From a virus: 38,082 nt of DNA. The notes below the pieces were generated by a model that was given only the letters and a program-made list of their open reading frames with translations, was not told the DNA's origin and made no database searches. Shown here piece after piece: positions 2,978 to 21,898 of this stretch. Within the stretch, counting starts at the first letter, position 1, and every line of letters begins with the position of its first letter. The position numbers were made by a program, and so were the translations under genes. The DNA lies in IMG/VR virus record IMGVR_UViG_3300027693_000002. One strand, 5' to 3'.

Positions 2978-3310
2978 ATGTCAATTGCAATCAAAAGCCT
3001 GAAGACTGGGGATGTTCTCTACGACTGCCACAAGGAGAGGGCTGGAAATACCACCATGTCTGTAATGAGGGTCTGGAAGATCCAAGTCCTCGAGGTGAAT
3101 CTTGAAGAGGGTAAAGCGCTCATCTCTTGGAACGGAAACTCGCCTGTTTGGAAAACCGAACAGTACTTCCAGGACGCAAGGATCCGTCGGACTCCCCCCG
3201 AGTGGTCCACGATAGGGATCTTCGAAGGCAGAACCTGCTACTTCTGCCGCGCTAAGGAGGTCGACGGTCACACACCTACTTGCACCCACCCCAAGGCCAA
3301 GAAACGTTGA
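2978..3310 (+). CDS. hypothetical Cys/His-containing small protein (110 aa)
   Basis: ORF placed directly after the promoter-like motif. The antisense 290-aa ORF over the same region looks like a shadow ORF. Confidence 0.55.
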   Translation: MSIAIKSLKTGDVLYDCHKERAGNTTMSVMRVWKIQVLEVNLEEGKALISWNGNSPVWKTEQYFQDARIRRTPPEWSTIGIFEGRTCYFCRAKEVDGHTPTCTHPKAKKR

Positions 3311-3327
3311 GTCCAAGCCCCCTACAA

Positions 3328-3420
3328 GGTGCAAAACCAGTACCACCCAAACCCCTTCGAGGCTTCTCCACCTGGGGTTGAAACGGCCCCAAACCCAAAA
3401 ACTAATACTCAGGTTGCACT
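3328..3420 (+). repeat. conserved ~95-nt 3'-UTR/intergenic element, copy 1
   Basis: It shares GCAAAACCAGTACCA, a stem AACCCC/GGGGTT, TTGAA, a CA-rich tract and ATACT...TTGCA with 30286-30380. The stem shows a compensatory change (CCCC/GGGG here, CCCCC/GGGGG in copy 2). Confidence 0.6.
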
Positions 3421-3442
3421 GGCAATACCACTTTTTTGTTGT

Positions 3443-3475
3443 TGAGTTCTCACCCCATCGTGCGTAGTACTTAGC
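3443..3475 (+). promoter_or_regulatory. consensus leaderless promoter (TTGAGT-N14-GCGTAGTA-N6-ATG)
   Basis: TTGAGT at 3443-3448 and GCGTAGTA at 3462-3469, with the ATG at 3476. Confidence 0.6.
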
Positions 3476-3835
3476 ATGTACGACCCAGCAGAGAAGATTG
3501 ACGAAGCTGTTCGAACCACATTGGCCGAGGCATTTCGTTGCGTAGGTTTGGAGCCCTACGCCGTGGTTGCCAGCGAATTCGTTGGGTCTGCATGTACCCT
3601 CCCCAACCACTACAGGACGGTGCCCGAGTTCGTGAATTGGCTTACCATCGGAGCAATCCGGAAGCTTGGGAGGGGGTTGGATCTCCCATGCGAGATGTTG
3701 CGCGAGATAGCACTCAGAATCGAGCACGCTTGCTTCGCTGCGAGTGAGCATGACGTCGATTCGGAGAGTGACGTGGAAACCGAACTCAACGTCGCCAAGC
3801 AAGCCCTCGAAGCCCTTCGGAAGAAGGCTCGCTAA
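3476..3835 (+). CDS. hypothetical protein (119 aa)
   Basis: ORF at the canonical distance from the promoter motif. Confidence 0.6.
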   Translation: MYDPAEKIDEAVRTTLAEAFRCVGLEPYAVVASEFVGSACTLPNHYRTVPEFVNWLTIGAIRKLGRGLDLPCEMLREIALRIEHACFAASEHDVDSESDVETELNVAKQALEALRKKAR

Positions 3836-3840
3836 CCGAT

Positions 3841-3870
3841 AAGAACGGGTCAAGTGGTTGACCCGTTCTT
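3841..3870. terminator. bidirectional hairpin terminator candidate between convergent genes
   Basis: A perfect 13-bp stem, AAGAACGGGTCAA / TTGACCCGTTCTT, with a GTGG loop. It sits between the stop of 3476..3835 (+) and the end of 3882..4172 (-). Confidence 0.5.
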
Positions 3871-3881
3871 CATCTCGTGAC

Positions 3882-4172
3882 TCATGGTTTCCTCAATCGT
3901 CCTACTACGCCGTTGCCACTGACCGTCTTATGCATCACCGTGTGGTCACGTGGCATCTCCGGTAGCCTAGGCTCTTCGTCAAACGGCGAGGTCGCGAACG
4001 GGTACTCCTCATCGAAGGTCAAAGCATTAACCTCGACCGGCTTCCCTTGTTCGTTCTCGGTGATGGTCTTCATCATGTCATCTTGGTTCTCGAACGTGGA
4101 CGTGGGCATTGGAGTGGACTTTAGACCTGGGGGTGGGTTAGGGTCGTAGCAGTTGACTCCAAACCTGATCAA
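3882..4172 (-). CDS. hypothetical acidic protein (96 aa; TTG or an internal ATG start)
   Basis: The minus-strand ORF has a more protein-like composition than the overlapping plus-strand ORF. The start codon is uncertain. Confidence 0.3.
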   Translation of the reverse strand: MIRFGVNCYDPNPPPGLKSTPMPTSTFENQDDMMKTITENEQGKPVEVNALTFDEEYPFATSPFDEEPRLPEMPRDHTVMHKTVSGNGVVGRLRKP

Positions 4173-4526
4173 AGTTACCCGATCATTTTCAACTTGACAA
4201 GAATTCCAATCGGATTTAGCATACCGGCCTCAGGTCATAATTCCGTAAAGTGGTAGATCTGATGGGTCCTTGAAAAGCAAGTCTATCGGGTTCACGGCAC
4301 GAAACAGCGCGTTCCGCGCACTTCCTTGCTGTGGTAAAAGACTTGAGGAAAATCAAGTTGACCAAACACCAAGAGGACTTGATCCTTTCGGGGAAAGTAG
4401 TTCCTAGATCACCTGGACGTTCCAGGACAAAATGGTCGAGGAATGTCGATATTCCTCGAAATTGGTGAATCGATGGATCGAAGGCTATGCCTAAGTTTAC
4501 TTAGGAAGTGTCCCGATCGTCGAATG

Positions 4527-4552
4527 ATGCAGTGCCCGAAGGGGCACTGCAT
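4527..4552 (+). other. GC-rich hairpin (11-bp stem) in the 4150-4650 non-coding region
   Basis: ATGCAGTGCCC-gaag-GGGCACTGCAT. Confidence 0.4.
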
Positions 4553-4651
4553 TCGCGCTATTACCGTACTAGCCGGAGGCTTACTGTGAAGGTAAGATCA
4601 CAAAATCTGGTTCGCATAGCTTCAAACTGAGAGTTCTACTCTAACGTAAGT

Positions 4652-4930
4652 TTGAACACGTTCTCAGATACGGTACTGAGCATGCCAGGACCAATATCCG
4701 ATGTGTATGATCCAGAGTTCTCGACGGTGGCGAATGCTGACCTAGTCCGTTCCGCCATAGAGATCCAACGGGACAAGGTAACCGCCCTACTTGGACCTCA
4801 GTTGCCCAACATCCTTGACGTTGTTGTTAACATGGATAGCAACGAGGGAAAAGAATTCACCATGAAGCTAACGGAGCGAGATCTACGAGTGATTCGCTTT
4901 GCGCTCAATCGAGCACTTGAGACGATCTAG
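4652..4930 (+). CDS. hypothetical protein (92 aa)
   Basis: ORF that follows the structured non-coding region. Confidence 0.45.
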   Translation: MNTFSDTVLSMPGPISDVYDPEFSTVANADLVRSAIEIQRDKVTALLGPQLPNILDVVVNMDSNEGKEFTMKLTERDLRVIRFALNRALETI

Positions 4931-5202: not shown

Positions 5203-5949
5203 TCATAACCCACCTACCCGTAGCACGAGGTTAACGTACTCCAAACCCCGTGGTAGATCCCGGTTCACCAAAACCTTCCGACGAGTGCACGTCGTGGGTG
5301 CCTTGGTCTTGGGGTTGAACCCAGTCCTCTCGAAGTCCTCCCAATAGAGACCGACACCATGCTTTTGCCAGGTAGCGAGCTTGTTGAAATTGATCCCATG
5401 CTGAAAGAGTAGTTCGTTCTTGGCCGAGAAACTCCGACCTTCAAGGACCTCCGTCGCCTGCTTGGCGTTCTTCCCAGCCTTTCTCAACGTCCAGTAACAC
5501 CAGGAGTTCAGACAACAGCGAAAGGCATCCGACTGCCTCCATCGGAAGTAATCGACCACGTCGTTCTCCAAGATCCCCACCCAGACCCGACCGTCAAAGT
5601 GACCAGGCTTGCCCAGCTCCAACGAAAAGGTCGACGACGCTATCCCCGCAGAGACCGACACAAGCTTCTCCACTTCGCGACCGAATAGATCCGTATCACG
5701 AGGCAGTAGAACCGAAATTTCGTCACTCTCCGTGAATGCATAGAGTCCACCTAACTCAATCAACAAAGCCTTCGCCGTCGCCACCATGCACTCGTGAAAC
5801 TTCACATCGAATGGATGCTCCATTCCTCGGGTCAGCTTCGTGAAGCTCCGCCCATCAACACGAACAATGGGATAGGCACCAGGTAAGACTTCCAGCGCAT
5901 GATAGCACTCAAGCCGTCGCATCCGAACATCAAGGTTGTCACTTTTCAT
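5203..5949 (-). CDS. Thg1-like protein (tRNA-His guanylyltransferase / 3'-5' nucleotide polymerase family)
   Basis: 248 aa. The motifs IVRVDGRSF, TESDEISVLL, FDGRVWV, RWRQSDAFRCCLNSWCYWTL and SAKNELLFQHGINFNK align, from memory, with conserved Thg1 blocks ([55 protein letters not shown]). Confidence 0.8.
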   Translation of the reverse strand: MKSDNLDVRMRRLECYHALEVLPGAYPIVRVDGRSFTKLTRGMEHPFDVKFHECMVATAKALLIELGGLYAFTESDEISVLLPRDTDLFGREVEKLVSVSAGIASSTFSLELGKPGHFDGRVWVGILENDVVDYFRWRQSDAFRCCLNSWCYWTLRKAGKNAKQATEVLEGRSFSAKNELLFQHGINFNKLATWQKHGVGLYWEDFERTGFNPKTKAPTTCTRRKVLVNRDLPRGLEYVNLVLRVGGL

Positions 5950-6131: not shown

Positions 6132-6569
6132 ATGAAAGTCACGAATCTCACCAATGCTCCGATCTACCTGAAGGACTTAAGACTCATTCGGCAGGGTCAA
6201 TCCGAGGCCCGGAGAGCTGAGGACCAGTACATTGGGGCGGGACGTAGTGTTTACCTGCCCGACACTTCAGAAGTCATTCGATCCGCTCAAAAAGGTGATC
6301 TCTATCAGTTCGAGAAGGTGGGTAAGCTAAGGCTCAACGAGATCCTCTCTCTAGCGGCCTTCCCGGGCCCAGGGAACTCAGCAACGATACACCATGACCT
6401 AGGGTATTACCCCAACGCAGCAGCTCTCAAAAAGGTTGTTACGGGTTCGGTAGTCACGTGGTTAACCTCTATAGGTGCCGTAGACATCATCCACAACGCT
6501 ACCTTCACAGAGACCACCTTCATCAATACAGTGGCCTTGCCTTTAGAGTTCTTAGTAAGGGTTGGATAA
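6132..6569 (+). CDS. hypothetical protein (145 aa), translationally coupled to the downstream tailspike-like gene
   Basis: Its 8-nt overlap with 6562..8526 suggests a two-gene structural module. Confidence 0.5.
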   Translation: MKVTNLTNAPIYLKDLRLIRQGQSEARRAEDQYIGAGRSVYLPDTSEVIRSAQKGDLYQFEKVGKLRLNEILSLAAFPGPGNSATIHHDLGYYPNAAALKKVVTGSVVTWLTSIGAVDIIHNATFTETTFINTVALPLEFLVRVG

Positions 6570-8526
6570 TATGACAGTTACACCACAAGAACTCGCTCGT
6601 GATGACTTCGGGACTATCATCCGAAAGCTCAACGTCCCCGGGGGACCCAACTCCTTTAGCCTTGGTGACGTCATCATCATCGATGACGTCAACGGGAATG
6701 ACTCAACGGGAGTGATCAACGGATTACCCTTCAAAACAGTTGAAGCCGCCATCGCCTACATCAATACGTATGGCTTCACGGAAGTGACTATGTGGCTCTT
6801 ACCGGGGCGGTATACTATCGCTGCCGGGTTCGTAATGCCCGCCACCTGCTCAATGCGTGGATTCAGCTTGCAAGTGTGCAGCATCACACTCACTACCTCT
6901 GTAAGCGCTACAATGATCACGATGGGGGAGAATTCTCGTATAGAGGATCTGACCCTGAACTTAACGTCAACATCAGATACGGCTAACCTAGTACTACTTG
7001 AGCTCCCGGGTACGACGTCAATCACATCGAAGATCAGAACTTGCGTTCTCAATATAGATAACGCCACAGTCTCGACGGGCAGTACCACCAACGTGTATGG
7101 CCTCTACGTGACAGGTACCGGTATCCTTGGGCCAGCAACGTTCAGCTTCAATCAAACTCGAAGTAGCACAATGAATCTCCGTTCCAACGGGAATGGCCAC
7201 AAGTACGGGATCTACTTGCCCCCGACAGGCTCCGGGTGTCAGATCTCCTGGAGAGACTCAAACATTTACGTTGCCGCCCCACGAGACTTGGCCTCAGCGG
7301 GTAACTACACTGGGGTTTGCTGTGAGAATAACAACAGCCAAATCCAGCTAAGAACAACCTCCATATCTGGAGTACCCTATCAATCACCAACTACTAACCC
7401 CTCGGTACGCCTGTTCTCACTTGTGAACACGACTCTATCAGGGATCCAAACCATTCAAGGAGTCACACTGGTCGCTGGTGACCGAATCCTCCTCGGAAGT
7501 CAAAACACAGAAACCCAGAACTCTGTTTGGATAGTTGCTAGTGAGGCTTGGACCCGTGCGGCAGATATGCCCCTTGGCAGCAATGCCAGTGGATCTTGGA
7601 TAGAGGTGCAAGAAGGAAGCTTCGCGTCCCAAAAGTGGCTCTGTGTTAGTTACCCAGCCACAGTTGGCACAGATCCTCTAACCTGGAGACACACCTATAG
7701 CGGGGTAGATCTCAAGTTGCCCGTGATGGCCAGGTATACAGGGGGATCCCCTACAGGATCTAGAGCAGCTCAAGGCTCCTACACGCCCGCCGAAGGAGAT
7801 CGCCTATTCTTGGATCAGGCCACAAGTGCAGTAAACAATGGTACTTGGACCTACAATTCGACTGGAGCCTGGACTCGGGCTGGGGATATGCCCGCAGGAA
7901 CAACTTCCTTCAATGCCTACATAACTGTGGAGGGTGGTACAGATGAAGGACACGCATTCATCTGCACTACCGTGGGTACTGTGGATACAGATGATCTAAC
8001 GTTTGTGCCCAAGTACAACGGATCGGATATCCTTCAACTCCTACCGCTCTCGGGTAACGTGCCCAATGGCATCAACGTCGGGCCTGGTGTTGACTTGGTT
8101 ACGAAAAGTACCAATGGCAAGCCTTTCTCAACATACACGAGACCAAATACTTTCGTGTATGGCTATCGAGGTAACCTGCCTAATGGTATCAGGTACCTAT
8201 GGCAAGGACTGCAGACCGCGTTGGACAGTACCCAGGTATTCTACCGCTTCCAGCAAGATACCATCGTGCAAGGGATCTCCATCGTAGTTAGGAACACAGA
8301 TTTAGGCACCACTGTGGTTAAGGCAACGGCACTCAAGTCCTTGAGTGGTATCGCCGGACAGGGGATCCACACTCCAGTGAGTGTGAGCATCACTAACGGG
8401 ATCACTATGGCAGAGAATTACAAATCTTCTATACTGTTCGAACGAGCCTCATTCCTCGCAGTACAACTAGAATCTAACTCACCCGTTAGCCCCGGAGACT
8501 TCACTGTCGAGATTGATGCCTACTGA
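6562..8526 (+). CDS. tailspike / tail-fiber-like receptor-binding protein, with an N-terminal pectate-lyase-type beta-helix signature and two ~60-aa C-terminal tandem repeats
   Basis: 654 aa, Ser/Thr/Gly/Asn-rich. The N-terminal pattern GDVIIIDD...PFKTVEAAIAYIN...GRYTI resembles the starts of beta-helix depolymerases. Internal repeats GDRxxL...AWTRAxDMPxG...GTDxLTW/F occur twice. Confidence 0.55.
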   Translation: MDNMTVTPQELARDDFGTIIRKLNVPGGPNSFSLGDVIIIDDVNGNDSTGVINGLPFKTVEAAIAYINTYGFTEVTMWLLPGRYTIAAGFVMPATCSMRGFSLQVCSITLTTSVSATMITMGENSRIEDLTLNLTSTSDTANLVLLELPGTTSITSKIRTCVLNIDNATVSTGSTTNVYGLYVTGTGILGPATFSFNQTRSSTMNLRSNGNGHKYGIYLPPTGSGCQISWRDSNIYVAAPRDLASAGNYTGVCCENNNSQIQLRTTSISGVPYQSPTTNPSVRLFSLVNTTLSGIQTIQGVTLVAGDRILLGSQNTETQNSVWIVASEAWTRAADMPLGSNASGSWIEVQEGSFASQKWLCVSYPATVGTDPLTWRHTYSGVDLKLPVMARYTGGSPTGSRAAQGSYTPAEGDRLFLDQATSAVNNGTWTYNSTGAWTRAGDMPAGTTSFNAYITVEGGTDEGHAFICTTVGTVDTDDLTFVPKYNGSDILQLLPLSGNVPNGINVGPGVDLVTKSTNGKPFSTYTRPNTFVYGYRGNLPNGIRYLWQGLQTALDSTQVFYRFQQDTIVQGISIVVRNTDLGTTVVKATALKSLSGIAGQGIHTPVSVSITNGITMAENYKSSILFERASFLAVQLESNSPVSPGDFTVEIDAY

Positions 8527-8684
8527 GTCAAAGGTCCTTCGAGCCCAATCGAACTAGGATCACTCGAAGACCACCTTCTTTCAACACGCTCGATAAAGCA
8601 TACGACAGAGATAGACTTCGCAGACCCACAGTCCGATGAAGATGCAGATCCGTAATAGGTCGGCCATGCCCTGAAAGTATCCTT

Positions 8685-8963
8685 TCAGTCCATCCCTTTA
8701 CGTTGCGTCTGGACTGGTTGCTCTTGCTGAATTTCACGAGAGATCATAGAAAAGTGAAGCTTCAAATCGCCCTTCTGCCACATCACGTCGGAACCATCGG
8801 GCGAGATTGACCAAAAGCCACGCCGTCGACGAATGCGATTCGCCTGCCAATCGATCACCGCAATCGTCAGCAAAGCCAGGGAGTACCCACCCAGCCCAAC
8901 TGCTAAATACCTTAGAACTTCAGAGTACATTGTACCAAGTAACCTTTCGAGACTAACCTGCAA
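8685..8963 (-). CDS. small membrane protein candidate (92 aa, one predicted transmembrane helix)
   Basis: Hydrophobic stretch YLAVGLGGYSLALLTIAVIDW. Convergent with the tailspike-like gene. A holin-like role is only a guess. Confidence 0.3.
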   Translation of the reverse strand: MQVSLERLLGTMYSEVLRYLAVGLGGYSLALLTIAVIDWQANRIRRRRGFWSISPDGSDVMWQKGDLKLHFSMISREIQQEQPVQTQRKGMD

Positions 8964-9049
8964 TCCTTGTCAACTCTCGAACGTCCTTTAAGCTTCTTAG
9001 GTTTCTTTAGGGCGGAATGTACCCTTGGACTTGAATCCTCATTTAGGTG

Positions 9050-9085
9050 TTGAGTCATACTTAGCATGGAGTAATAGGTGCATTA
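9050..9085 (+). promoter_or_regulatory. orphan promoter-like motif (TTGAGT-N15-gaGTAATAGG) with no ORF downstream, inside a minus-strand operon region
   Basis: TTGAGT at 9050-9055 and GTAATA at 9071-9076. There is no ATG at the canonical position. Confidence 0.3.
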
Positions 9086-9143
9086 GTCACTGGGTAACCA
9101 CCTCTCTTATTTCTGTACAACTATGTCCACAGAGACCTTTGTG

Positions 9144-9362
9144 TTAAGATTGGGAGTGGGTCTTGGGTTCTGGGAAACTGCTGTTTAGTGGGATTTCTTC
9201 GACAGATTCACACGTCATGACCACCTTCCCATCCTCACTCACATACTCCGAAGGATGATGGACAGAGGTGAGTATGATCTGTCCATCATCCAGCACCCCT
9301 TGATAGATGACTTGGTTCGGCACTGCTTTCGAGTTAGTCATGAGTGCACTTAACACCGTCAT
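9144..9362 (-). CDS. hypothetical protein (72 aa)
   Basis: Member of a minus-strand operon; overlaps the upstream gene by 4 nt. Confidence 0.4.
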   Translation of the reverse strand: MTVLSALMTNSKAVPNQVIYQGVLDDGQIILTSVHHPSEYVSEDGKVVMTCESVEEIPLNSSFPEPKTHSQS

Positions 9363-9865
9363 GACGGTTTCACTAAGAGGTAGTACTTCGCCCCTGCGGG
9401 ATCCAATCCGAGGTCAGTGAAGAGCAGAACCGCCTTCTCTAAGCCCTCGATTCGATCCGGATGCCAAAACGGGTAGAACTCCGTGCAAGTGTTCGCCCCT
9501 CCATCCACGACCGTAACCCCAAATAGCCAGTCTTCACTATCGTTCGGATCAAACCACTGCTGAGGTACTTGATGCTGACAGTTGAGAAGAGTAGATAGCG
9601 CCACGTCAATGGACATCCCATACTGAGTAGCATACTCGACTACGATTGGCGAAGGCACCATCCGATCCCGCTTTTTCACCGTTGAACCACACTGGGGACA
9701 GTAGAGCCCGCCCGGTACAACTACATGGGAAGAGTTTGACTGGCACACGGGCTCCATCCCATCAACTACTTGAAGTAGTTGATGATCGAACCGATATCCG
9801 TAAATGACTTTCCCATTGGCTTTGAACTCATAGACCATCGTAATAGCCAATTCTATACCACCCAT
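9359..9865 (-). CDS. hypothetical protein with a CxxC pair (168 aa)
   Basis: ORF; 4-nt overlap with its neighbour. Confidence 0.5.
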   Translation of the reverse strand: MGGIELAITMVYEFKANGKVIYGYRFDHQLLQVVDGMEPVCQSNSSHVVVPGGLYCPQCGSTVKKRDRMVPSPIVVEYATQYGMSIDVALSTLLNCQHQVPQQWFDPNDSEDWLFGVTVVDGGANTCTEFYPFWHPDRIEGLEKAVLLFTDLGLDPAGAKYYLLVKPS

Positions 9866-10209
9866 GGCCGCTTGTATCGACTTAAAACAGGAACTTTTGA
9901 GGGCTCTGTAGGCCGAGGGTCGTCAAGCTCCCAGTTCAGGTAGGCCGTCAGCCGCTCCCGTACGTCCCGCCTCTGAACCACACCCGTCAGAGGTGTGCCC
10001 ATAAGTCGTGCCTCGTCCAGCTCCCGAAGCGCCAGTAACCCACACGTCCAAAACACCTCGCAGGTCGGACACATGTACCCAAGCATCTGCCTCATTGGGT
10101 CGTCCGCCGGCTGAACTCGATGCCCATGCTCATGGACGTGAGCCCGGATGTCCCGTACCATCCGCACTGGATCCCTGTAGTTTGCCACCATGACACTCGA
10201 TAACCTCAT
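9853..10209 (-). CDS. hypothetical His-rich protein (118 aa). The start may be an internal ATG.
   Basis: ORF in the operon. It overlaps 10130..10426 (-), so one of the two starts is probably wrong. Confidence 0.35.
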   Translation of the reverse strand: MRLSSVMVANYRDPVRMVRDIRAHVHEHGHRVQPADDPMRQMLGYMCPTCEVFWTCGLLALRELDEARLMGTPLTGVVQRRDVRERLTAYLNWELDDPRPTEPSKVPVLSRYKRPWVV

Positions 10210-10426
10210 CCAAAGACTTCAAACCATACGAGAATCCAACCCAGGTGACCTGGAGGTCTTCTACCTCGTCCACATAGACGCTCCGCCCTTCATCATAGAC
10301 AAGGTTGAACCAACCAAGGCCGACATTACTGGCGAAGACTTCGGCTACGAAGAAGGTCAGCCCTATATCCTGATCTCCAATGACGAAGTATGACCACGTT
10401 CTTCCGCTTCCAGGCCTCCCCATCAA
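10130..10426 (-). CDS. hypothetical protein (98 aa)
   Basis: ORF in the minus-strand operon. It competes with the plus-strand ORF 10190..10393. Confidence 0.3.
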   Translation of the reverse strand: MMGRPGSGRTWSYFVIGDQDIGLTFFVAEVFASNVGLGWFNLVYDEGRSVYVDEVEDLQVTWVGFSYGLKSLDEVIECHGGKLQGSSADGTGHPGSRP

Positions 10427-10514
10427 AGAAGTCAGACGTTGATCCCCCTAACAGGGGAAGCCTTCGAGTACTTCCCCTGAGACTCCCAACCTTCCCTCGG
10501 TGCTCGCCCCCTTG

Positions 10515-10799
10515 TCAAACGTGACTTGGTTGAAGGTCAACCTCAGTTACCTCAAGCTCAGGGTAATCGTCAAGGAACCGCTGAACCAAGACTATCAGGT
10601 TCGCCTTGGCCTCCTCCCGAGTATCACCCTCAGCTCGAAAAGGTTCTTCGCCCTGAAGCCCAAACGGAACAGTCATCGCTAAGTAGCGCTTCTTACTTGT
10701 TGAAGGGTAACAACACAGCCTTTGAGCCTGGTTGTAGGTTACGATTTGAAACTTCACGGCTACCTCGCTTCTTTTGTACAAACAAACTCCAAGGGGCAT
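10515..10799 (-). CDS. hypothetical protein (94 aa)
   Basis: ORF in the minus-strand operon. Confidence 0.4.
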   Translation of the reverse strand: MPLGVCLYKRSEVAVKFQIVTYNQAQRLCCYPSTSKKRYLAMTVPFGLQGEEPFRAEGDTREEAKANLIVLVQRFLDDYPELEVTEVDLQPSHV

Positions 10800-10815
10800 G
10801 AGAAAGGTCCAAACT

Positions 10816-11289
10816 TCACGACTTCCCCTTGCGAACTAAGCTCAGATCCGGCCTGCTGAAGAGAGAACGAAGATCATCTGCCCGAGCCCTCAGCTCTGCA
10901 AACCACTCGGGCGAGCGCCCCTTACCCAAACGGTCCCACACAAGTGAAAGGCTCGCTTGCCAAGCTGCATCCTTCGACCACGTTATCGAAGACTCCAACT
11001 CCAAAGGTGTTGCCACTTGACACCAGACTTCCTTGTCCCGGACAACTTGGACAAGAACAGAGTCACCGCCGGCTACCTCGATTGCCCGATTCGCTACCCT
11101 GAGTATGAACTGGTGGTAAGCCGCACTCTTAGGGTAGACTCGAACAAGTAACCAAAGAAGCCATGACCCATTCTCACATCGCTCCCACGCCTCTTGAAGT
11201 GTCGTCCCCAAAGGTAACCCGCTCAACCAATCAAGAGATGAATCACAAGCCCCACGTTTCTCCAGTAGCTCAATCACTTCGTCCATCAT
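10816..11289 (-). CDS. hypothetical protein (157 aa)
   Basis: ORF; 4-nt overlap with the downstream gene. Confidence 0.5.
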   Translation of the reverse strand: MMDEVIELLEKRGACDSSLDWLSGLPLGTTLQEAWERCENGSWLLWLLVRVYPKSAAYHQFILRVANRAIEVAGGDSVLVQVVRDKEVWCQVATPLELESSITWSKDAAWQASLSLVWDRLGKGRSPEWFAELRARADDLRSLFSRPDLSLVRKGKS

Positions 11290-11504
11290 AGCCTCTCAAC
11301 AGATACAGGCGGTCCAAGAGATTCACCACCACCTACGACAAACTTCTCAACCAACAAGTTGGACGCCTCCCCATAGGCTACGTCATTGACATCCTCCCCA
11401 CCCTCGACCGAGACCTCAACAATGACCTGGCTACCCGTAACCCGCTCACCAGAAGAGGATAGAAAGACGTTGTACGTTACTCGGTACATCATTACGACCA
11501 CCAC
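11286..11504 (-). CDS. hypothetical protein (72 aa)
   Basis: Coupled by an overlap. Confidence 0.4.
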   Translation of the reverse strand: MVVVMMYRVTYNVFLSSSGERVTGSQVIVEVSVEGGEDVNDVAYGEASNLLVEKFVVGGGESLGPPVSVERL

Positions 11505-11914
11505 CCCCGATTATTCAGCGCTACAATGTCCGAGTAGAGAGCTTTCACGTTCTCAACCGAGATCCCATACTTGGCCGACAGTGCAGCCATTCGAGCACGG
11601 TATCTCTCGGTCCGCTCCATACCCTCGGCAAAGCTCTGTGCAGCGTTCGCGTCCCGAATCTCTTTGGCTCGCCTCCAATGAGAGCGGGTCTCGTGCTCAA
11701 GACAGTCCAGTAGAACAGCCCCGCACCCCGACATCGAACCGTCAAGCTTCAAACACGTAATCGATGCATGGGTAGAGGTCAAGGATTCAATGACTCCTAC
11801 CTCGCCAACAATGTGAACCATCATATCCTTCGGTTGACGTGCTACGAGAACGATGTCTCCAAGGGCAAATGCTGTCATACGCCTATGTGTACTAAAACGC
11901 GTAGGCAAACGCAA
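11492..11914 (-). CDS. hypothetical protein (140 aa)
   Basis: ORF. Confidence 0.5.
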   Translation of the reverse strand: MRLPTRFSTHRRMTAFALGDIVLVARQPKDMMVHIVGEVGVIESLTSTHASITCLKLDGSMSGCGAVLLDCLEHETRSHWRRAKEIRDANAAQSFAEGMERTERYRARMAALSAKYGISVENVKALYSDIVALNNRGWWS

Positions 11915-12253
11915 GCTTTTGGTTTACTGTCCCGCCATCGAAGGACAAAGACTCGGCCAGAATAGCACAGTCGGTTTCTACTTCGCCTACGGACACGCCC
12001 TAGGCCAACCCTCAAGATAGAACACCTCCCCATAAGCCACCACCAAGCCTAGAGAGTCTTGGAACACCAATACCAACCGCAGCACTGTCGTTGGTATAGA
12101 CGATGACCTGTGGCACCTCAACCCTAAGCAATACCCCTCAAGCTCGGTACCCTTCAGTTCCCCGATGCCTTCAAGTGGCAACCCACCAAGAAGACCCCCT
12201 CGACCGTAATGGAGCCACATGACATCTCAGCCAGCTAGAACATCGTCAGTAGC

Positions 12254-12622
12254 TCAACCCCTACCCAACACGTCATCAAGTATCACCCGCATCTCGTCAT
12301 CCGTAATGAGAGAGGCTCCAACCCCAACAGGTGAACCTTGAGTGCCCTCGTCAACTGGTCGCTCAGACTCTGAAGTTGACTCCCCTACTTCAGGCTCGAT
12401 AACTGGTTCAGGTCCCACCTCAGGCTCAGGTGAGATGGACTCAGATGACAACCCATCAGGCTTGTACCCAGCCCTCTCATTGAGTGACTCCCGTATCCAA
12501 GTCGATAGGCGCTTCCCACTCTCACTGGCGCGAAGCGCCCATGACCGTGCTTTCCCATCCCTTGCCCGAATGAGTATAGTTTTCGTGTAGTTCTTGACGG
12601 CCATGCTCGAATAAGCCGTCAT
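12254..12622 (-). CDS. ribbon-helix-helix (CopG/Arc/ParG-like) DNA-binding protein candidate with an acidic PE-rich tail
   Basis: The N-terminal KNYTKTILIRARDGKARSWALRASESGKRLSTWIRESLNERA fits the RHH beta-alpha-alpha pattern. It is the first gene of the minus-strand operon and sits directly beside the iteron array. Confidence 0.45.
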   Translation of the reverse strand: MTAYSSMAVKNYTKTILIRARDGKARSWALRASESGKRLSTWIRESLNERAGYKPDGLSSESISPEPEVGPEPVIEPEVGESTSESERPVDEGTQGSPVGVGASLITDDEMRVILDDVLGRG

Positions 12623-13065: not shown

Positions 13066-13224
13066 GATTTACTGTGAAAGTAGTAGGTGTCGGATAACCA
13101 CACCAGAACAGGCGCTTCGCGCAAGTGTAGGTAGGGTAGTCCTATAAGATATGAGGTAGTGTTTGTCATACGTCTATACCTATGTAGGCGAGGGTATGAT
13201 TAGCTATGGTAGGTACGAAAGATA

Positions 13225-13300
13225 AGGTAGCCTACACGTAAGTGACGAGCGCGCTCGAATCAATAGTAACGAGCGTGGTTCTTGCCTACGTGTAGTTGTA
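13225..13300. repeat. R1 inverted-repeat element, copy 1 (GCCTACACGTAAGT ... CGAATCAATAGTAACGA ... CTACGTGTAGT)
   Basis: 10-bp terminal inverted repeats, CTACACGTAG / CTACGTGTAG. Homologous copies lie at 18103-18178 and 27825-27900. Confidence 0.65.
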
Positions 13301-13365
13301 AGAACCGTAGGAACCCGTACCCTCATGGGGTAGTCCTCTACTTACATAGATAGAGTAGAAAGAAG

Positions 13366-13399
13366 TTGAGAGTTCGGGTGCTCGTGCGTAATAGAGGGC
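13366..13399 (+). promoter_or_regulatory. consensus leaderless promoter
   Basis: TTGAGA, a 14-nt spacer, GCGTAATA (13386-13393), gagggc, then ATG at 13400. Confidence 0.65.
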
Positions 13400-13954
13400 A
13401 TGAGCCAAACCGAACGAAATGGGGTCGTTCTTACGAGTGGACTTCTTGAGGGGTGGGAGGTTTCCAACCTCATCCCGAGTGAACAACTTCCAATGGAGGC
13501 GCTGAAGGTGTTCGAAGCCCCGATTTCCTCTGAGAACAAGATAGGGCTTCTCCTACGTGAAGAGATTCTTGGGGGAAGGGGGATGGTCTACGTGGCGGCT
13601 AGGGCTGCGCGCCGAGCCTGCACAGAGACAGGTTGGGACCATCCTGCTACCCTTCGAGCTCTCGACCTATGCGACCGTTACGCTGAGGGGGAAGAGATCT
13701 CAGCTAAAGCGCTAGGGGCAGCTGCTTTGGCTGTTTCTGAGGCTCCTTCAATGGCTGATGATGCCCCTTCAATGGATGCTTGGGAGGCTGCTCATGGGGC
13801 TGCTCGAGTTGCTTGGGCTGTTGCCGTTGATACTAGTGCCCGGACTAGGGCACTAACAGTTATTCGAACGGCTGTTAGTGCTGTCCCTAGTGAGAAGGAA
13901 GAGAGAAAAGCCCAACTCGCCGATTGTCGGGAGTGGCTTACGAGACGGGCCTAA
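13400..13954 (+). CDS. family A small protein (184 aa), paralogous to 17189..17803
   Basis: Promoter motif. The paralogue shares ...REEILGGRGMVYVAARAARRACTETGWDHPATLRALDLCDRY... Confidence 0.7.
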   Translation: MSQTERNGVVLTSGLLEGWEVSNLIPSEQLPMEALKVFEAPISSENKIGLLLREEILGGRGMVYVAARAARRACTETGWDHPATLRALDLCDRYAEGEEISAKALGAAALAVSEAPSMADDAPSMDAWEAAHGAARVAWAVAVDTSARTRALTVIRTAVSAVPSEKEERKAQLADCREWLTRRA

Positions 13955-13963
13955 GGAATTTGG

Positions 13964-13999
13964 TTGAGTTCTCTAGGCGCCCATGCGTAATAGGGTGGC
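13964..13999 (+). promoter_or_regulatory. consensus leaderless promoter
   Basis: TTGAGT (13964-13969), 15-nt spacer, GCGTAATA (13985-13992), then ATG at 14000. Confidence 0.65.
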
Positions 14000-14356
14000 A
14001 TGAGCAAAGTCGAACGAGAAGCTGTCATCCTGAACACGGTTCCTGGTTCGAAGTGGTATCAGTGCGTGAATAGCAAGTGGGTAGTGGGCTTGGTCGAGAG
14101 GGTAACCAAGACTACGATCTACCTCGAAGGGGGGACTCGCATCTCGAAGAGGAACTGTCGTGACCAAGATGGTTGGGCTTGGTATCCACCCACTCAGAAC
14201 ATCGTCAAGCAGTTCGAGGACTTTGAGGTCGCCAGGGTTGCTTACGAGGCGGCCGTAGAGAAGCTTCGAGAGGCAGCTCAGCGTGCTACGCCTGCTCAAC
14301 TTCTCAAGCTAGCCACTCAGCTAGAGAGCCTCATTGACCTGTCGGAGATTCACTGA
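14000..14356 (+). CDS. family B small protein (118 aa), with paralogues at 15380 and 16333
   Basis: Shared ...NTVPGSKWYQC...W...VTKTT...GG..ISK..CRD..G..W.PPTQ...; promoter motif upstream. Confidence 0.75.
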   Translation: MSKVEREAVILNTVPGSKWYQCVNSKWVVGLVERVTKTTIYLEGGTRISKRNCRDQDGWAWYPPTQNIVKQFEDFEVARVAYEAAVEKLREAAQRATPAQLLKLATQLESLIDLSEIH

Positions 14357-14401
14357 CCGCTCGTACTAGGAGGCCCGAGAAATTGACCTCGGGTATGGGA
14401 C

Positions 14402-15196
14402 ATGAAAAAGCCAATTGAATTGATCGTTCGGGGTTCTGTTGAGATTTCATCCTTCCAATTCAGCCTTGAGGCCACAGAAAATGTGGTGTGGCTGTCACGT
14501 ACGATGCGTGGCGTAGTCTCCGGGCTACTAGGCGTGTCGACGGGCGACATTGACGTCGTTGTCGTTGACGATTTCTTTTCTGGTCGAGGCCGATGGGGCC
14601 AGGTTTTGGAGATCTCAAACAAGACTGGTAAGTTCGACGGGACTCGGCGGATTCGGATGCTATTTCGCCTGCTCCCAGAAGAGCAAGCTCGCGATTTGAG
14701 GCCAATTAGCCTTGAGGTATCGGCTGATGAGACAGTTCCCTGTACGGTCATGGTGAGTGACCGGTTCGCCGGCAAGGAATTGCTATGGTCGCAGTCTTTT
14801 GTTCGCTACTCACATCGATTGTCTGACCCGGTACGGGCCGCAGATATCCTGACATGGCACTGGACGCGCTACTACCGTTTCCTACCGTGGTGTGATGTCG
14901 AGGATTTGGCACGCGACTTCGGGACTGCGGCGATTGGACTCACTCTGAGTGAGGCGAATCGCCTTGCTTCAAGGCAGCTCTACCAGAGGGCTAGAGAACA
15001 GGGTTGGAGGAAGTTGACTCTACGAGAGCAATCCCGGTGGCAGCTCCGTGGTCAGTGGCATCGCGACGAGGATTGCGTCACAGCTCGCGCCAAGCTTGGT
15101 GCACCCAACGGGGCGTCCGAAGCCTCGAATAGGGCCTCGCGTGCCAATGGTAAGCTTGACGACTACGAGTACTTGGCCGAGCAAATGGAGATCTAG
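14402..15196 (+). CDS. hypothetical protein (264 aa)
   Basis: Long ORF. The upstream signal is non-consensus (TTGACC ... TATGGGAC). Confidence 0.55.
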   Translation: MKKPIELIVRGSVEISSFQFSLEATENVVWLSRTMRGVVSGLLGVSTGDIDVVVVDDFFSGRGRWGQVLEISNKTGKFDGTRRIRMLFRLLPEEQARDLRPISLEVSADETVPCTVMVSDRFAGKELLWSQSFVRYSHRLSDPVRAADILTWHWTRYYRFLPWCDVEDLARDFGTAAIGLTLSEANRLASRQLYQRAREQGWRKLTLREQSRWQLRGQWHRDEDCVTARAKLGAPNGASEASNRASRANGKLDDYEYLAEQMEI

Positions 15197-15343
15197 AAGT
15201 TGACTCCAAACCCAGCTTAAGTTTCATAGAATGGGGAGCCAAGCACTGGGTTCCGGATGGGGTACTTGATGTTGGCCGACTTCCCAGTACCCCAGCCAAA
15301 GCTAGTTTCTTGGGGGTACCACAGGCGAACGCTATAGATTTTG

Positions 15344-15379
15344 GTTATGGGTTCGCAGGGGGCAAGCGTAATAGAGAAC
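15344..15379 (+). promoter_or_regulatory. consensus leaderless promoter (weak -35, GTTATG)
   Basis: GCGTAATA at 15366-15373, gagaac, then ATG at 15380. Confidence 0.55.
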
Positions 15380-15751
15380 ATGAACGCAGTTGATCGCGAA
15401 GAGGCCATTCGAAATACGGTACCTGGTTCAAAGTGGTATCAGTGCATCCATGGTAAGTGGCATGCGGTTGAGGTCAAGAAGGTAACCAAGACTACGGTTG
15501 TGCTTCTGGGGGGCACTTGCATCTCGAAGGCAACCTGTCGTGATCATGCTGGGCGGATCTGGTTTCCACCCACTCAGGACCTAGTTCTGGAGGTCATGGC
15601 GAAGAAGGACGCGATGACCTCTTACCTGGCAGCTCTAGAGAAGCTTCGAGCTATTGCTCAGTGGACTACAGCTGACCAGCTCCGGCAACTAGTCACCCAG
15701 ATGGAGAGCCTCATTGACCTCGTCACCGTCAATAGGGGCATAGGCCGGTGA
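15380..15751 (+). CDS. family B small protein (123 aa). The start is placed at the internal ATG defined by the promoter geometry and the paralogue N-termini.
   Basis: MNAVDREEAIRNTVPGSKWYQC... aligns with the family B N-termini. The track ORF begins 39 nt upstream, inside the promoter. Confidence 0.7.
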   Translation: MNAVDREEAIRNTVPGSKWYQCIHGKWHAVEVKKVTKTTVVLLGGTCISKATCRDHAGRIWFPPTQDLVLEVMAKKDAMTSYLAALEKLRAIAQWTTADQLRQLVTQMESLIDLVTVNRGIGR

Positions 15752-16201
15752 AGGTGGTAGGGGACTTTTGAGCTCCCTGCGTTTGAGTTCTGGGCCGGGG
15801 GCGTAGGTGATCATTCCGCGATACTGGGTAATGACAACGACGTCTTCGAGCTGGAATCCGGCGGACTTGACGTTACGTTGGATTCCGCCGTTGAGGACTC
15901 CGGTGAACCAGTTTGGTTTCTGCTTGAACTGGTCAGCGATCATCCTAGCGGAGAGACCATTTGGGGGGCCGGTCTTGATGAACTGGAGGACCTTCTTGGG
16001 GTTCGGCTTCAAGGCGGAGAGGAGTTTCATCCACGCCGTATCCCGGTCGAGGCGTGCCACTACCGGGATACGTGCTACGGGCTTTGGTTCATCCGCGACT
16101 GCCTGAAGGGTTGGGTTGAAGCCGTTCTCCTGAAGGAAGACGAGGGCCTTGATGAGGGCTTGATCGTCCTCGGTCTCGAATTGTACGAGAAATCTCGTCA
16201 T
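15689..16201 (-). CDS. hypothetical protein (170 aa) on the minus strand between plus-strand genes
   Basis: ATG start with AAGG about 9 nt upstream; natural-looking composition. It overlaps the 3' end of the 15380 gene by 63 nt. A competing plus-strand ORF 15878..16309 has a TTG start. Confidence 0.45.
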   Translation of the reverse strand: MTRFLVQFETEDDQALIKALVFLQENGFNPTLQAVADEPKPVARIPVVARLDRDTAWMKLLSALKPNPKKVLQFIKTGPPNGLSARMIADQFKQKPNWFTGVLNGGIQRNVKSAGFQLEDVVVITQYRGMITYAPGPELKRRELKSPLPPSPAYAPIDGDEVNEALHLGD

Positions 16202-16297
16202 AGGGGGCGCCTTAGTGGTACTGTAGTCAAGGCGTCATGCAAGAGGTTTTTGAGTAGGGGGACTTTTGAGTCAGAGGTTGAGTCTGCCTCAAAAGTC

Positions 16298-16332
16298 TCT
16301 CAGGACTAGGGCACAGGTGGTGTGTAGTAGGT
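16298..16332 (+). promoter_or_regulatory. degenerate promoter variant (…GTGTAGTAggtATG)
   Basis: A GTAGTA box ends 3 nt before the ATG at 16333. The -35 is unclear. Confidence 0.3.
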
Positions 16333-16701
16333 ATGAGCAACGCTATTCTTGAGGAAGCCGTTCGAAATACGGTCGCTGGGTCGAAGTGGTACCACCAAGT
16401 GGGTCGTAGTTGGCGTGAGGTCACTGTTGAGCGGGTAACCAAGACAATGGTCATTCTTACCAGTGGGGTACGAATCCCGAAGAAAACTCGTTGGGCTGAC
16501 GGGCACATATGGTTCCCACCCACCCCTGAGATGGTGGCGCTCTATGAGGCCCAGGATGCTCAAGAGATGGCTCATATCTTATACGTAGTAGCCTTAGAGA
16601 GGCTCCAGGCGTTGGCTCGGAAGTTTACGACCAACCAACTACGTCAGTTGGCCACTCAGATGGAGAGAGCCATCAAAGAGGTGGGAGACTCGCAGGGGTA
16701 A
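16333..16701 (+). CDS. family B small protein (122 aa)
   Basis: Paralogue of 14000 and 15380. Confidence 0.7.
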   Translation: MSNAILEEAVRNTVAGSKWYHQVGRSWREVTVERVTKTMVILTSGVRIPKKTRWADGHIWFPPTPEMVALYEAQDAQEMAHILYVVALERLQALARKFTTNQLRQLATQMERAIKEVGDSQG

Positions 16702-16856
16702 TCGAACCACTTCGGCCTGCTGTAAAAAGGTTGACTACCGGGGTGGGGGTGGAGTACTTTCCCGTTTGGCCTGAGCGTGGTTCTCCAATCATCTTCCACG
16801 TACGGGCTAGGCCGGGCCAGTTCTCCTTGTGTGCGGAGGATTGGCTCGGTCTTCTT

Positions 16857-17147: not shown

Positions 17148-17150
17148 CAG

Positions 17151-21897: not shown

Positions 21898-21898
21898 G

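What the first reader, a model, noticed from the sequence alone, without database searches (positions are those of the whole stretch)
5203..5949. Thg1-like 3'-5' polymerase encoded on a mobile element; possible tRNA-repair counter-defence
The 248-aa protein retains the conserved Thg1/TLP blocks. Bacterial Thg1-like proteins (TLPs) repair 5'-truncated tRNAs by templated 3'-5' addition. A phage copy, which I have rarely if ever seen described in phage or prophage-like contexts, suggests the element repairs tRNAs damaged at the 5' end or acceptor stem, or remodels tRNA-His. This would be analogous to the T4 Pnk/Rnl repair of PrrC-cleaved tRNA. It is a single minus-strand gene inserted between plus-strand modules, which is typical of accessory cargo.
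Basis: partly seen in the sequence, partly recalled or inferred. Interest (0 to 1): 0.7.

Follow-up and report, generated by a model that had tools for sequence, protein, structure and literature searches.

The report
Thg1-like tRNA-end polymerase on phage-like DNA
The gene really does encode an intact Thg1-like "reverse" (3'-5') RNA polymerase on what looks like a fragment of a very large phage, but such phage copies and the tRNA-repair idea are already published, so this is a new member of a known kind.

Summary
The ORF at 5203-5949 (-) is real. It encodes a 248-aa Thg1-like protein (TLP) that matches Pfam Thg1 (E=1.2e-26) and Thg1C (E=4.3e-15). All three catalytic carboxylates (D32, D76, E77) and the nucleotidyl-transfer residues are present. 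The predicted structure is confident (pLDDT 92.9), and its top 32 PDB matches are all Thg1/TLP. It is the bacterial/archaeal TLP type, because the eukaryotic HINNLYN motif is absent.

The claim that phage copies are rarely described is wrong. PHROG 4717 is this family, 159 GenBank phage records carry a homologue, and papers from 2010, 2013 and 2021 discuss phage Thg1, including as 5'-end tRNA repair against host attack.

New here: the window protein belongs to a monophyletic clade (65-100% identity) under purifying selection (dN/dS about 0.16-0.20). The clade sits on ORFan-rich contigs of up to 465 kb, is nested within cellular TLPs, and is far from cultured-phage Thg1 (27-34%). In cellular relatives a polynucleotide-kinase-like gene lies directly upstream (55 of 80 loci). 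In deeper viral relatives it lies directly downstream. The window has no kinase, RNA ligase or tRNA gene.

The function remains inferred. The most likely role is templated 5'-end tRNA repair.

The parts
5203..5949 (-). Complete gene for a 248-aa Thg1-like protein (TLP), a 3'-5' nucleotidyltransferase
   Evidence: ORF. Pfam Thg1 + Thg1C, PHROG 4717, PDB sequence matches. Model and fold search. dN/dS 0.155-0.203 against four relatives.
5584..5925 (-). Thg1 catalytic (palm) domain, residues 9-122
   Evidence: Pfam PF04446, E=1.2e-26. Coordinates checked by translation.
5299..5562 (-). Thg1 C-terminal domain, residues 130-217. It carries 'WRQSDAFRCCLNSW' where eukaryotic Thg1 has '[13 protein letters not shown]'.
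   Evidence: Pfam PF14413, E=4.3e-15. Alignment to human THG1. HINNLYN is described as a eukaryote-specific anticodon-reading motif in PMC6471195.
5854..5862 (-). Codons for R30-V31-D32 (triphosphate-binding Arg and the first metal-binding Asp; equivalent to hTHG1 R27 and D29)
   Evidence: Residue roles from PMC3701042. Invariant in 120 of 120 homologues.
5719..5727 (-). Codons for S75-D76-E77 (activation-site Ser plus the second and third carboxylates)
   Evidence: Invariant in 120 of 120 homologues.
5815..5817 (-). Codon for H45, where characterised Thg1/TLPs have the ATP-positioning Lys (ScThg1 K44 / BtTLP K43). His is the signature of the virus-borne clade.
   Evidence: His in all 20 closest homologues, Arg in the sister clade, Lys in the rest and in the three solved enzymes. 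The position varies in cellular TLPs (A 38, K 26, R 5, H 3 and others among 80 loci). Role of the Lys from PMC3701042.
5985..6012 (-). Sigma-70-like promoter candidate (TTGACT-16-TAGGAT), about 36 nt upstream of the TLP start codon in the 182-bp divergent intergenic region
   Evidence: Consensus scan only (6 sites found against 2.2 expected in the region). Sequence read. Weak evidence.

Best explanation
The gene encodes a catalytically intact, bacterial-type Thg1-like protein (TLP). It is carried on a fragment of a very large, ORFan-rich, phage-like genome.

By homology with characterised TLPs, the enzyme should first activate the 5'-phosphate of an RNA with ATP or GTP. It should then add nucleotides in the 3'-5' direction, templated by the opposite strand. 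On tRNA this rebuilds missing 5' acceptor-stem nucleotides.

The lineage appears to have captured the TLP together with its usual bacterial partner, a polynucleotide-kinase-like P-loop kinase that makes the 5'-phosphate. Together they form a two-step 'heal then refill' 5'-end repair module. In the sub-lineage that includes this window, the two genes have drifted apart, and the kinase is not within the 38 kb.

The most likely role is to keep host or phage tRNAs (or similar structured RNAs) usable during infection. That could be quality control or a counter to 5'-end damage.

Shown: homology, active-site integrity, fold, purifying selection, the kinase linkage in relatives, and the viral-type context of the clade. 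Inferred: the substrate, the activity, and any counter-defence role.
For: Family membership and active site.

TLP type rather than eukaryotic Thg1: the best PDB match is the M. acetivorans TLP, and HINNLYN is absent.

TLP chemistry: templated repair of 5'-truncated tRNA, with ATP/GTP activation followed by transfer (abstract of PMC4820378; PMC3701042).

Functional constraint: dN/dS 0.155-0.203 across five clade members.

Kinase linkage: an AAA_33 kinase (Pfam 6.6e-17; PHROG 505 'polynucleotide kinase' 2.6e-10) lies directly upstream on the same strand in 55 of 80 cellular loci. It overlaps the TLP start in the cellular sister clade. It lies directly downstream in viral relatives L008, L009 and L094, 2.6 kb away in L003/L004 and about 8.6 kb away on the P0007 contig. 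This association and its RNA-repair reading were published in 2010.

Viral-type context: relatives L008 and L009 are IMG/VR contigs. Clade members sit on 435-465 kb contigs of small genes, most with no Pfam hit. Of 40 window ORFs other than the TLP that were scanned, only two had a named PHROG match (a virion-protein domain and a sigma-factor-like protein); three more matched PHROGs of unknown function and three had sub-threshold Pfam matches. A shared promoter-like motif occurs in the window and the viral relatives but in none of the 84 other fetched loci: 81 cellular and the three cultured-phage loci.
Against: The window has no tRNA gene, RNA family, kinase, RNA ligase or CCA-adding enzyme. 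The 18-21 kb fetched around each of five relatives has no tRNA either.

No defence system that truncates tRNA 5' ends turned up in the one search made and the one paper read.

The in vivo role of bacterial TLPs is itself unknown (PMC3701042, PMC6471195).

H45 replaces the Lys that positions the activating ATP in BtTLP, so the activation chemistry may differ.

No phage hallmark gene (terminase, portal, capsid) was found in the window, so viral identity rests on indirect evidence.
Confidence: 0.5

Rival explanations
1. tRNA-His maturation. The TLP adds G-1 (templated by C73) to a phage-encoded or host tRNA-His that loses or lacks G-1, so that HisRS can charge it. This is the reading implied by the usual database name 'tRNA-His guanylyltransferase'.
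For: The family name and PHROG annotation. Most phages with a homologue are large, and those described in the papers found (Bc431v3, XacN1) encode many tRNAs. Archaeal enzymes add G-1 opposite C73 (abstract of PMC9508852).
Against: The anticodon-reading HINNLYN motif is absent. TLPs tested so far do not depend on the GUG anticodon and prefer repair substrates. No tRNA-His, or any other tRNA, is in the window or in the fetched flanks of relatives. The linkage to a 5'-kinase in relatives points to damaged 5'-OH ends rather than RNase P products.
Confidence: 0.2
2. A non-tRNA substrate. The enzyme repairs, extends or caps the 5' ends of other structured RNAs, host or phage, possibly on 5'-triphosphate ends that need no ATP activation.
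For: TLPs recognise RNA more broadly than Thg1, and DdiTLP4 is suspected to act on non-tRNA substrates. The clade-specific H45 sits at the ATP-positioning site. The gene is uncoupled from the kinase in this sub-lineage.
Against: No candidate RNA is conserved next to the gene. The repeated non-coding element at 4267-4350 is absent from relatives, and Rfam finds nothing. Position 45 varies widely in ordinary cellular TLPs, so H45 is weak evidence.
Confidence: 0.15
3. The contig is not viral. It belongs to a cellular genome, plasmid or other giant extrachromosomal element, and the TLP is ordinary cellular housekeeping with no infection-related role.
For: No terminase, portal or capsid gene was detected in 38 kb. 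Relatives carry ABC-transporter genes beside the TLP. The closest outgroup is clearly cellular.
Against: The window has very short genes, of which very few match any family. One protein has a domain shared with phage head-decoration and tail-fibre proteins. Relatives were classified as viral by IMG/VR. A dense, strand-specific promoter-like motif abuts start codons. No species-representative genome carries a copy above 58% identity.
Confidence: 0.1
4. A decaying or neutral passenger gene with no function in the element.
For: It lacks the partner kinase here and stands alone on its strand locally.
Against: The reading frame is intact and every catalytic residue is conserved. dN/dS is about 0.16-0.20 at dS up to 1.6. 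The gene is retained in at least 20 clusters of the clade.
Confidence: 0.03

Closest known systems
Bacterial Thg1-like proteins in kinase-TLP operons (Anantharaman, Iyer & Aravind 2010, PMC2904730)
   Same: Same subfamily: 54-58% identity to TLPs of Cyanobacteria, Chloroflexota, Planctomycetota and Myxococcota. It shares the subfamily motif RC(A/C)xN(G/S)W with C145. Relatives keep the polynucleotide-kinase-like neighbour.
   Different: It is carried on a phage-like element. It has His instead of Lys/Arg at position 45 and a one-residue deletion just before it. In the viral clade the gene order is TLP then kinase, not kinase then TLP. In this window the kinase is missing altogether.
Methanosarcina acetivorans TLP (PDB 5AXK-5AXN; PMC4820378)
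   Same: Best solved relative by sequence (E=1.3e-31, residues 13-234) and by fold (TM 0.82). All catalytic residues align. This enzyme performs templated 3'-5' addition on 5'-truncated tRNA.
   Different: Only about 32-38% identical. It has Lys at the position of H45 and Asn at the position of C145.
Bacillus thuringiensis TLP (PDB 4KGK/4KGM; PMC3701042)
   Same: Same fold and the same carboxylates (D30/D75/E76 correspond to D32/D76/E77). It is the biochemical reference for 5'-end repair preference and ATP/GTP activation.
   Different: About 32% identity. BtTLP K43 hydrogen-bonds the activating ATP, and K43A lowers adenylylation about 10-fold while leaving GTP activation unchanged. The window protein has His there.
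Thg1 homologues of cultured phages (PHROG 4717; e.g. Bacillus phage Bc431v3 gp143, phage G gp378, BcepSauron gp334, Brevundimonas phage Kikimora)
   Same: A stand-alone Thg1/TLP gene embedded among small hypothetical genes of large phages, with no annotated kinase or ligase beside it. The proposed role is the same.
   Different: Only 27-34% identical and a distant outgroup in the tree. The window clade is therefore a separate acquisition from bacteria.
Phage T4 Pnk/Rnl1 repair of PrrC-cleaved tRNA-Lys
   Same: The same logic: a phage enzyme restores host tRNA damaged by a defence nuclease, and a 5'-kinase prepares the end.
   Different: The chemistry differs (ligation of an anticodon-loop break versus templated refilling of a 5' end). 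No ligase or kinase is in this window, and no cognate 5'-end-cutting defence is known. The resemblance is by analogy only.

Membership tests
Thg1/TLP superfamily (3'-5' nucleotidyltransferases) | N-terminal Thg1 palm domain (PF04446) above the curated threshold | tested here: met
   93.6 bits against a cut-off of 29.2, E=1.2e-26, residues 9-122.
Thg1/TLP superfamily (3'-5' nucleotidyltransferases) | Thg1 C-terminal domain (PF14413) above the curated threshold | tested here: met
   56.4 bits against a cut-off of 26.3, E=4.3e-15, residues 130-217.
Thg1/TLP superfamily (3'-5' nucleotidyltransferases) | Three conserved carboxylates (hTHG1 D29, D76, E77; BtTLP D30, D75, E76) | tested here: met
   D32, D76 and E77 align. 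Codons verified. Residue definition from PMC3701042.
Thg1/TLP superfamily (3'-5' nucleotidyltransferases) | Nucleotidyl-transfer residues (hTHG1 R27, K95, R130) and the structural Glu (BtTLP E12) | tested here: met
   R30, K95, R121 and E14 are present. R30, K95 and R121 are invariant in 120 of 120 homologues; E14 is present in 119 of 120, the other sequence having a gap there (roles).
Thg1/TLP superfamily (3'-5' nucleotidyltransferases) | Activation-site residues: the Ser before the DE pair, and the Lys of the xKPxD motif (conserved in all characterised enzymes) | tested here: inconclusive
   S75 is present. The Lys is His (H45) in the whole viral clade. This position is Ala, Arg, His, Ser or other residues in 54 of 80 cellular TLP loci, so the Lys does not define the family. 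The consequence for ATP versus GTP activation is untested.
Thg1/TLP superfamily (3'-5' nucleotidyltransferases) | Thg1 fold (RRM-like palm plus C-terminal extension) | tested here: met
   AlphaFold2 pLDDT 92.9 and pTM 0.87. Foldseek PDB ranks 1-32 are all Thg1/TLP, with TM up to 0.82. The next hits are nucleotide cyclases, GGDEF and Cas10 at E>=7.5e-3.
Thg1/TLP superfamily (3'-5' nucleotidyltransferases) | 3'-5' nucleotide addition activity | not testable with these tools
   Needs a biochemical assay.
Eukaryotic-type Thg1 (tRNA-His G-1 specific) | HINNLYN motif, whose His stacks on anticodon base G36 | tested here: not met
   The aligned segment reads AFRCCLNS. The motif is described as eukaryote-specific in PMC6471195. 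The protein is not filed here.
Bacterial/archaeal TLP clade | Groups with prokaryotic TLPs rather than with eukaryotic Thg1 | tested here: met
   The best solved relative is MaTLP. Identity to bacterial TLPs is 54-58%. The protein is nested in the cellular TLP clade in the NJ tree.
Bacterial kinase-TLP RNA 5'-end repair operon | A polynucleotide-kinase-family P-loop kinase adjacent to the TLP | tested here: not met
   tblastn with the kinase of relatives finds nothing in the window at E<=1e-3, and no AAA_33 hit appears among 41 scanned ORFs. The feature is met in relatives. Only 5.2 kb lies downstream of the gene before the window edge, so a kinase elsewhere in the genome is not excluded.
T4-type Pnk/RNA-ligase tRNA repair system | RNA ligase (Rnl1, Rnl2 or RtcB) plus a kinase-phosphatase encoded by the element | tested here: not met
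   All eleven window ORFs of 200 aa or more, and 30 smaller ones, were scanned. None matches a ligase or Pnk. The rest of the genome is not available.
Tailed (huge) phage genome | Hallmark genes (terminase, portal, major capsid, tail) | tested here: inconclusive
   None in the 38 kb. There is only a roughly 100-aa domain, present twice in the 654-aa protein, that is shared with head-decoration and tail-fibre proteins, plus a sigma-factor-like ORF. Indirect support comes from the IMG/VR relatives, the 435-465 kb ORFan-rich contigs and the shared promoter-like motif.

The most novel reading that the evidence does not exclude
The His45 clade is a virus-specific TLP lineage, maintained by a family of huge phages, that counters a host defence not yet described. 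That defence would trim or damage the 5' end of tRNAs. The phage would rebuild the acceptor stem by templated 3'-5' synthesis. The ancestral form would work with its co-captured polynucleotide kinase. In this sub-lineage the enzyme would act without an adjacent kinase, possibly using GTP rather than ATP for activation.
Probability: 0.15. Interest if true: 0.7.

Novelty: new member of a known kind. Interest (0 to 1): 0.3.

Why it matters
No phage-encoded Thg1-like protein appeared with experimental characterisation in the literature searched, and the in vivo role of bacterial TLPs is also open. If phage TLPs do rebuild tRNA 5' ends during infection, that would add a third repair chemistry to the phage-host contest over tRNAs, alongside ligation and CCA addition. 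It would also predict a host nuclease class that attacks tRNA 5' ends. This window adds a well-conserved, independently acquired viral clade, with a traceable history of capture together with a kinase partner. That makes it a reasonable candidate for such tests. It does not change what is already known or proposed.

Tried and rejected
1. K45H as a functional flag. The His is perfectly clade-specific and sits where BtTLP K43 contacts ATP. However, 54 of 80 cellular TLP loci also lack Lys there, and 38 of them have Ala. It is kept only as a clade signature.

2. C145 replacing an Asn conserved in the human, Bt and Ma enzymes. It is shared by 118 of 120 homologues, including cellular ones, so it is a subfamily trait.

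3. A co-functional RNA next to the gene. The non-coding stretch 4173-4651 has a promoter-like site and a partial inverted copy at 31315-31413. It is absent from relatives' TLP neighbourhoods and unknown to Rfam and ARAGORN.

4. Extending the contig through exact-protein look-ups of genes at the window edges failed. The 435 kb relative has no retrievable DNA.

5. Nucleotide similarity to known phages: none. NCBIfam: no hit.

6. tRNA genes in the flanks of relatives: none.

7. A search for defence systems that cut tRNA 5' ends. The titles and abstracts returned named a 3'-tail cutter (Cas12a3) and an anticodon-arm cutter (OLD), and the one paper read maps bacterial Schlafen cuts to the anticodon arm. 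Others gave no cleavage site, and none named the 5' end.

It was redone with alignment A3.

Full report
**Observation.**
- It matches Pfam Thg1 (PF04446, E=1.2e-26, 93.6 bits against a cut-off of 29.2, residues 9-122).
- It matches Thg1C (PF14413, E=4.3e-15, residues 130-217).
- It matches PHROG 4717 'tRNA-His guanylyltransferase' (E=1.6e-35).
- NCBIfam has no model that matches.
- Against solved structures by sequence, the best match is the Methanosarcina acetivorans Thg1-like protein 5AXK (E=1.3e-31, residues 13-234). Next come the Bacillus thuringiensis TLP 4KGK (6.3e-20) and human THG1 3OTB (9.6e-18).

**Active site and fold.** The BtTLP structure paper defines the key residues (PMC3701042). 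The metal-binding carboxylates are hTHG1 D29/D76/E77. The nucleotidyl-transfer residues are R27/K95/R130. The activation residues are K44/S75, and there is a structural Glu (BtTLP E12).
- In the window protein these are D32, D76, E77, R30, K95, R121, S75 and E14 (codons verified).
- All are invariant in 120 homologues, except E14, which one homologue lacks through a gap.
- An AlphaFold2 model built on a 41-sequence alignment is confident (pLDDT 92.9, pTM 0.87).
- The first 32 Foldseek hits in the PDB are all Thg1/TLP chains, the best being 5axk_B at TM 0.82. Nucleotide cyclases, GGDEF and Cas10 follow only at E>=7.5e-3.

**Which kind of Thg1.** The eukaryote-specific HINNLYN motif, whose His stacks on anticodon base G36 (PMC6471195), is replaced by AFRCCLNS. 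The protein is closest to prokaryotic TLPs. It is a TLP, the branch whose characterised members add Watson-Crick-templated nucleotides to 5'-truncated tRNAs after ATP or GTP activation (abstract of PMC4820378; PMC3701042).

**Is a phage copy unusual? No.**
- PHROGs holds a family for it.
- tblastn finds a homologue in 159 GenBank phage records, from phages of Bacillus, Prevotella, Caulobacter, Mycobacterium, Brevundimonas, Erwinia, Burkholderia, Xanthomonas, Ralstonia and others. Most are annotated as tRNA-His guanylyltransferase.
- Anantharaman et al. 2010 already noted Thg1 in 'certain large DNA viruses' and inferred an RNA-repair role (PMC2904730).
- The Bc431v3 genome paper flagged gp143 in 2013 (PMC3601020).
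- Iyer et al. [quoted passage not shown]

I found no paper that tests it experimentally.

**What the window is.**
- It has no nucleotide match to known phages, no tRNA and no Rfam family.
- Genes are short, roughly 87 ORFs in 38 kb. Beyond the TLP itself, 40 ORFs were scanned: 30 against both Pfam and PHROGs and 10 against Pfam only. Only two had a named PHROG match.
- One is a roughly 100-aa domain, present twice in the 654-aa protein at 6562-8526, that is shared with phage head-decoration, virion and tail-fibre proteins.
- The other is a sigma-factor-like protein at 37177-37824.
- The remainder were three matches to PHROGs of unknown function and three sub-threshold Pfam matches.
- The exact TLP protein recurs on JGI metagenome contigs.
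- Proteins 72-77% identical lie on contigs of 435 and 465 kb made of small genes, most with no Pfam hit. One at 70% lies on a similar 442 kb contig.
- Two relatives at 70-72% are IMG/VR viral contigs.
- Several neighbouring ORFans are shared between the window and these relatives.
- A striking promoter-like motif, GTTGAG-N15/16-GCGTAATA, ends about 6 nt before ATG start codons. It has 12 exact copies in the window where none is expected.
- The motif recurs in the viral relatives but in none of the 84 other fetched loci: 81 cellular and the three cultured-phage loci.

No terminase, portal or capsid gene is in the window. 'Fragment of a huge phage' is thus the best reading, but it is indirect.

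**Origin of the gene.**
- The 20 closest protein clusters (65-100% identity) form a monophyletic clade in an NJ tree.
- Its sister clade, with Arg at position 45, includes P0022. That protein sits in an unmistakably cellular neighbourhood (SmpB, PdxA, transporters, sugar epimerases).
- Both clades are nested in cellular TLPs of Cyanobacteria, Chloroflexota, Planctomycetota and Myxococcota at 54-58% identity.
- The Thg1 genes of cultured phages are only 27-34% identical and form a distant outgroup.

This is therefore an independent capture from bacteria. Within the clade the gene is under purifying selection (dN/dS 0.155-0.203 at dS 0.6-1.6). Its G+C (53.7%) equals that of the window (53.1%). 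It is a long-standing gene of the lineage, not a recent insertion.

**The partner gene.**
- In relatives, a 150-190 aa P-loop kinase accompanies the TLP (Pfam AAA_33 6.6e-17; PHROG 505 'polynucleotide kinase' 2.6e-10).
- It lies directly upstream on the same strand in 55 of 80 cellular loci, at a median gap of 44 nt. It abuts the TLP start in P0022.
- In the deeper branches of the viral clade it lies directly downstream (L008, L009, L094).
- It lies 2.6 kb downstream in L003/L004 and about 8.6 kb downstream on the P0007 contig.
- It is absent from the flanks of the 87%-identical relatives and from the window.

This reproduces the 2010 finding that the 'most persistent association' of bacterial Thg1 is with a polynucleotide kinase that supplies the 5'-phosphate substrate. 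It suggests that the pair was captured together and later came apart. Only 5.2 kb of the window lies downstream of the TLP, so a distal kinase cannot be excluded.

**Mechanism.**
- Shown: homology, intact catalytic and transfer sites, fold, selection, and the kinase linkage in relatives.
- Inferred: the enzyme activates a 5'-monophosphate end with ATP or GTP and refills missing 5' nucleotides, using the 3' strand of the acceptor stem as template. This would keep tRNAs usable during infection.
- Against a specific counter-defence role: no repair partner or tRNA is in the window. The anti-phage tRNases seen in the one search made and the one paper read cut the anticodon arm or the 3' tail rather than the 5' end.
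- Rivals: G-1 addition to a tRNA-His; action on non-tRNA RNAs; a non-viral replicon; a neutral passenger gene. The last is effectively excluded.

**A detail that did not hold up.** The viral clade has His where all characterised enzymes have the Lys that hydrogen-bonds N3 of the activating ATP. BtTLP K43A lowers adenylylation about 10-fold and leaves guanylylation unchanged. The swap is perfectly clade-specific. However, the same position is Ala in 38 of 80 cellular TLP loci and Lys in only 26. It is therefore a clade marker and at most a hint about nucleotide preference.

**Gene arrangement.** The two immediate neighbours are on the plus strand (4652-4930 and 6132-8526). The wider surroundings are largely on the minus strand (2981-4172 and 8528-12622). 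In relatives the TLP is co-directional with its neighbours and often overlaps them. The gene has its own sigma-70-like promoter candidate (6012-5985) and lacks the GTTGAG...GCGTAATA motif.

**Verdict.** This is a new member of a known kind. The modest additions are an independently acquired, virus-borne TLP clade and the history of its kinase partner.

Noticed in passing
window 13365-31644, + strand (for example 13365-13393, 18666-18694, 25963-25991, 31616-31644): The promoter-like motif GTTGAG-N15/16-GCGTAATA ends about 6 nt before ATG start codons. There are 12 exact copies where 0 are expected, and 17 copies of GCGTAATA where 0.37 are expected, all on the + strand. The position implies leaderless or near-leaderless mRNAs. 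The motif is also present in viral relatives L003, L005/L006, L008 and L009, and absent from all 84 other fetched loci (81 cellular, 3 cultured-phage).
   Followed up: partly
window 13214-13296, 18090-18172, 27816-27898: An 83-nt repeat in three copies (60-81% identity). Each copy is bounded by the palindrome CCTACACGTA...TACGTGTAG. It may be a terminator or a regulatory hairpin element.
   Followed up: no
window 4173-4651 and 31315-31413: A 480-bp stretch without convincing ORFs. It contains a strong sigma-70-like site (TTGACA-17-TAGCAT at 4194-4222), followed by about 130 nt that recur, inverted, at 31315-31413 (blocks of 38 nt at 84% and 28 nt at 93%). It may be a small RNA or regulatory element. 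It is not found near the TLP in relatives and is unknown to Rfam.
   Followed up: partly
window 13431-13730 / 17199-17498; 27145-27400 / 28407-28662; 18476-18697 / 18975-19196; 25773-25958 / 26368-26553; 21652-21787 / 28078-28213; 21463-21562 / 27948-28047: Several local duplications at 73-99% identity. They create paralogous small genes (for example 13400-13954 and 17189-17803) and duplicated intergenic segments, pointing to active gene-family expansion in this region.
   Followed up: no
window 6562-8526 (+): A 654-aa protein with no Pfam hit. It contains a roughly 100-aa domain at residues about 278-382, repeated at about 406-482. The domain matches phage head-decoration, virion structural and tail-fibre PHROGs and proteins of Gordonia, Rhodococcus, Ralstonia and cyanophages. 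It is the only virion-like signal in the window.
   Followed up: partly
window 37177-37824 (-): A 215-aa ORF with a weak sigma-70 region 4 match (Pfam E=0.0022) and a match to PHROG 351 'RNA polymerase sigma factor' (E=2.1e-8). It could be the factor that reads the repeated promoter-like motif.
   Followed up: no
L005 2382-6252, L007, and the P0007 contig: Close relatives of the element carry a three-gene ABC-transporter set just upstream of the TLP: an NMT1/OmpA-domain substrate-binding protein, a BPD_transp_1 permease and an ABC_tran ATPase. The set lies among ORFans and is absent from the window.
   Followed up: no
L093 7540-8798; L094 10001-11220; L008 10001-11180; L003 7667-11599: The order of the kinase-TLP pair is inverted between the cellular loci (kinase then TLP) and the viral clade (TLP then kinase). 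Within the viral clade the pair separates progressively: overlapping, then 2.6 kb, then about 8.6 kb, then not found.
   Followed up: yes
window 5815-5817 (H45) and homologues P0001-P0036: Position 45 sorts the family cleanly. It is His in all 20 virus-borne clusters, Arg in the cellular sister clade, Lys in the next shell, and mostly Ala in a more distant cellular clade. That distant clade also has Asn instead of Cys at position 145.
   Followed up: yes
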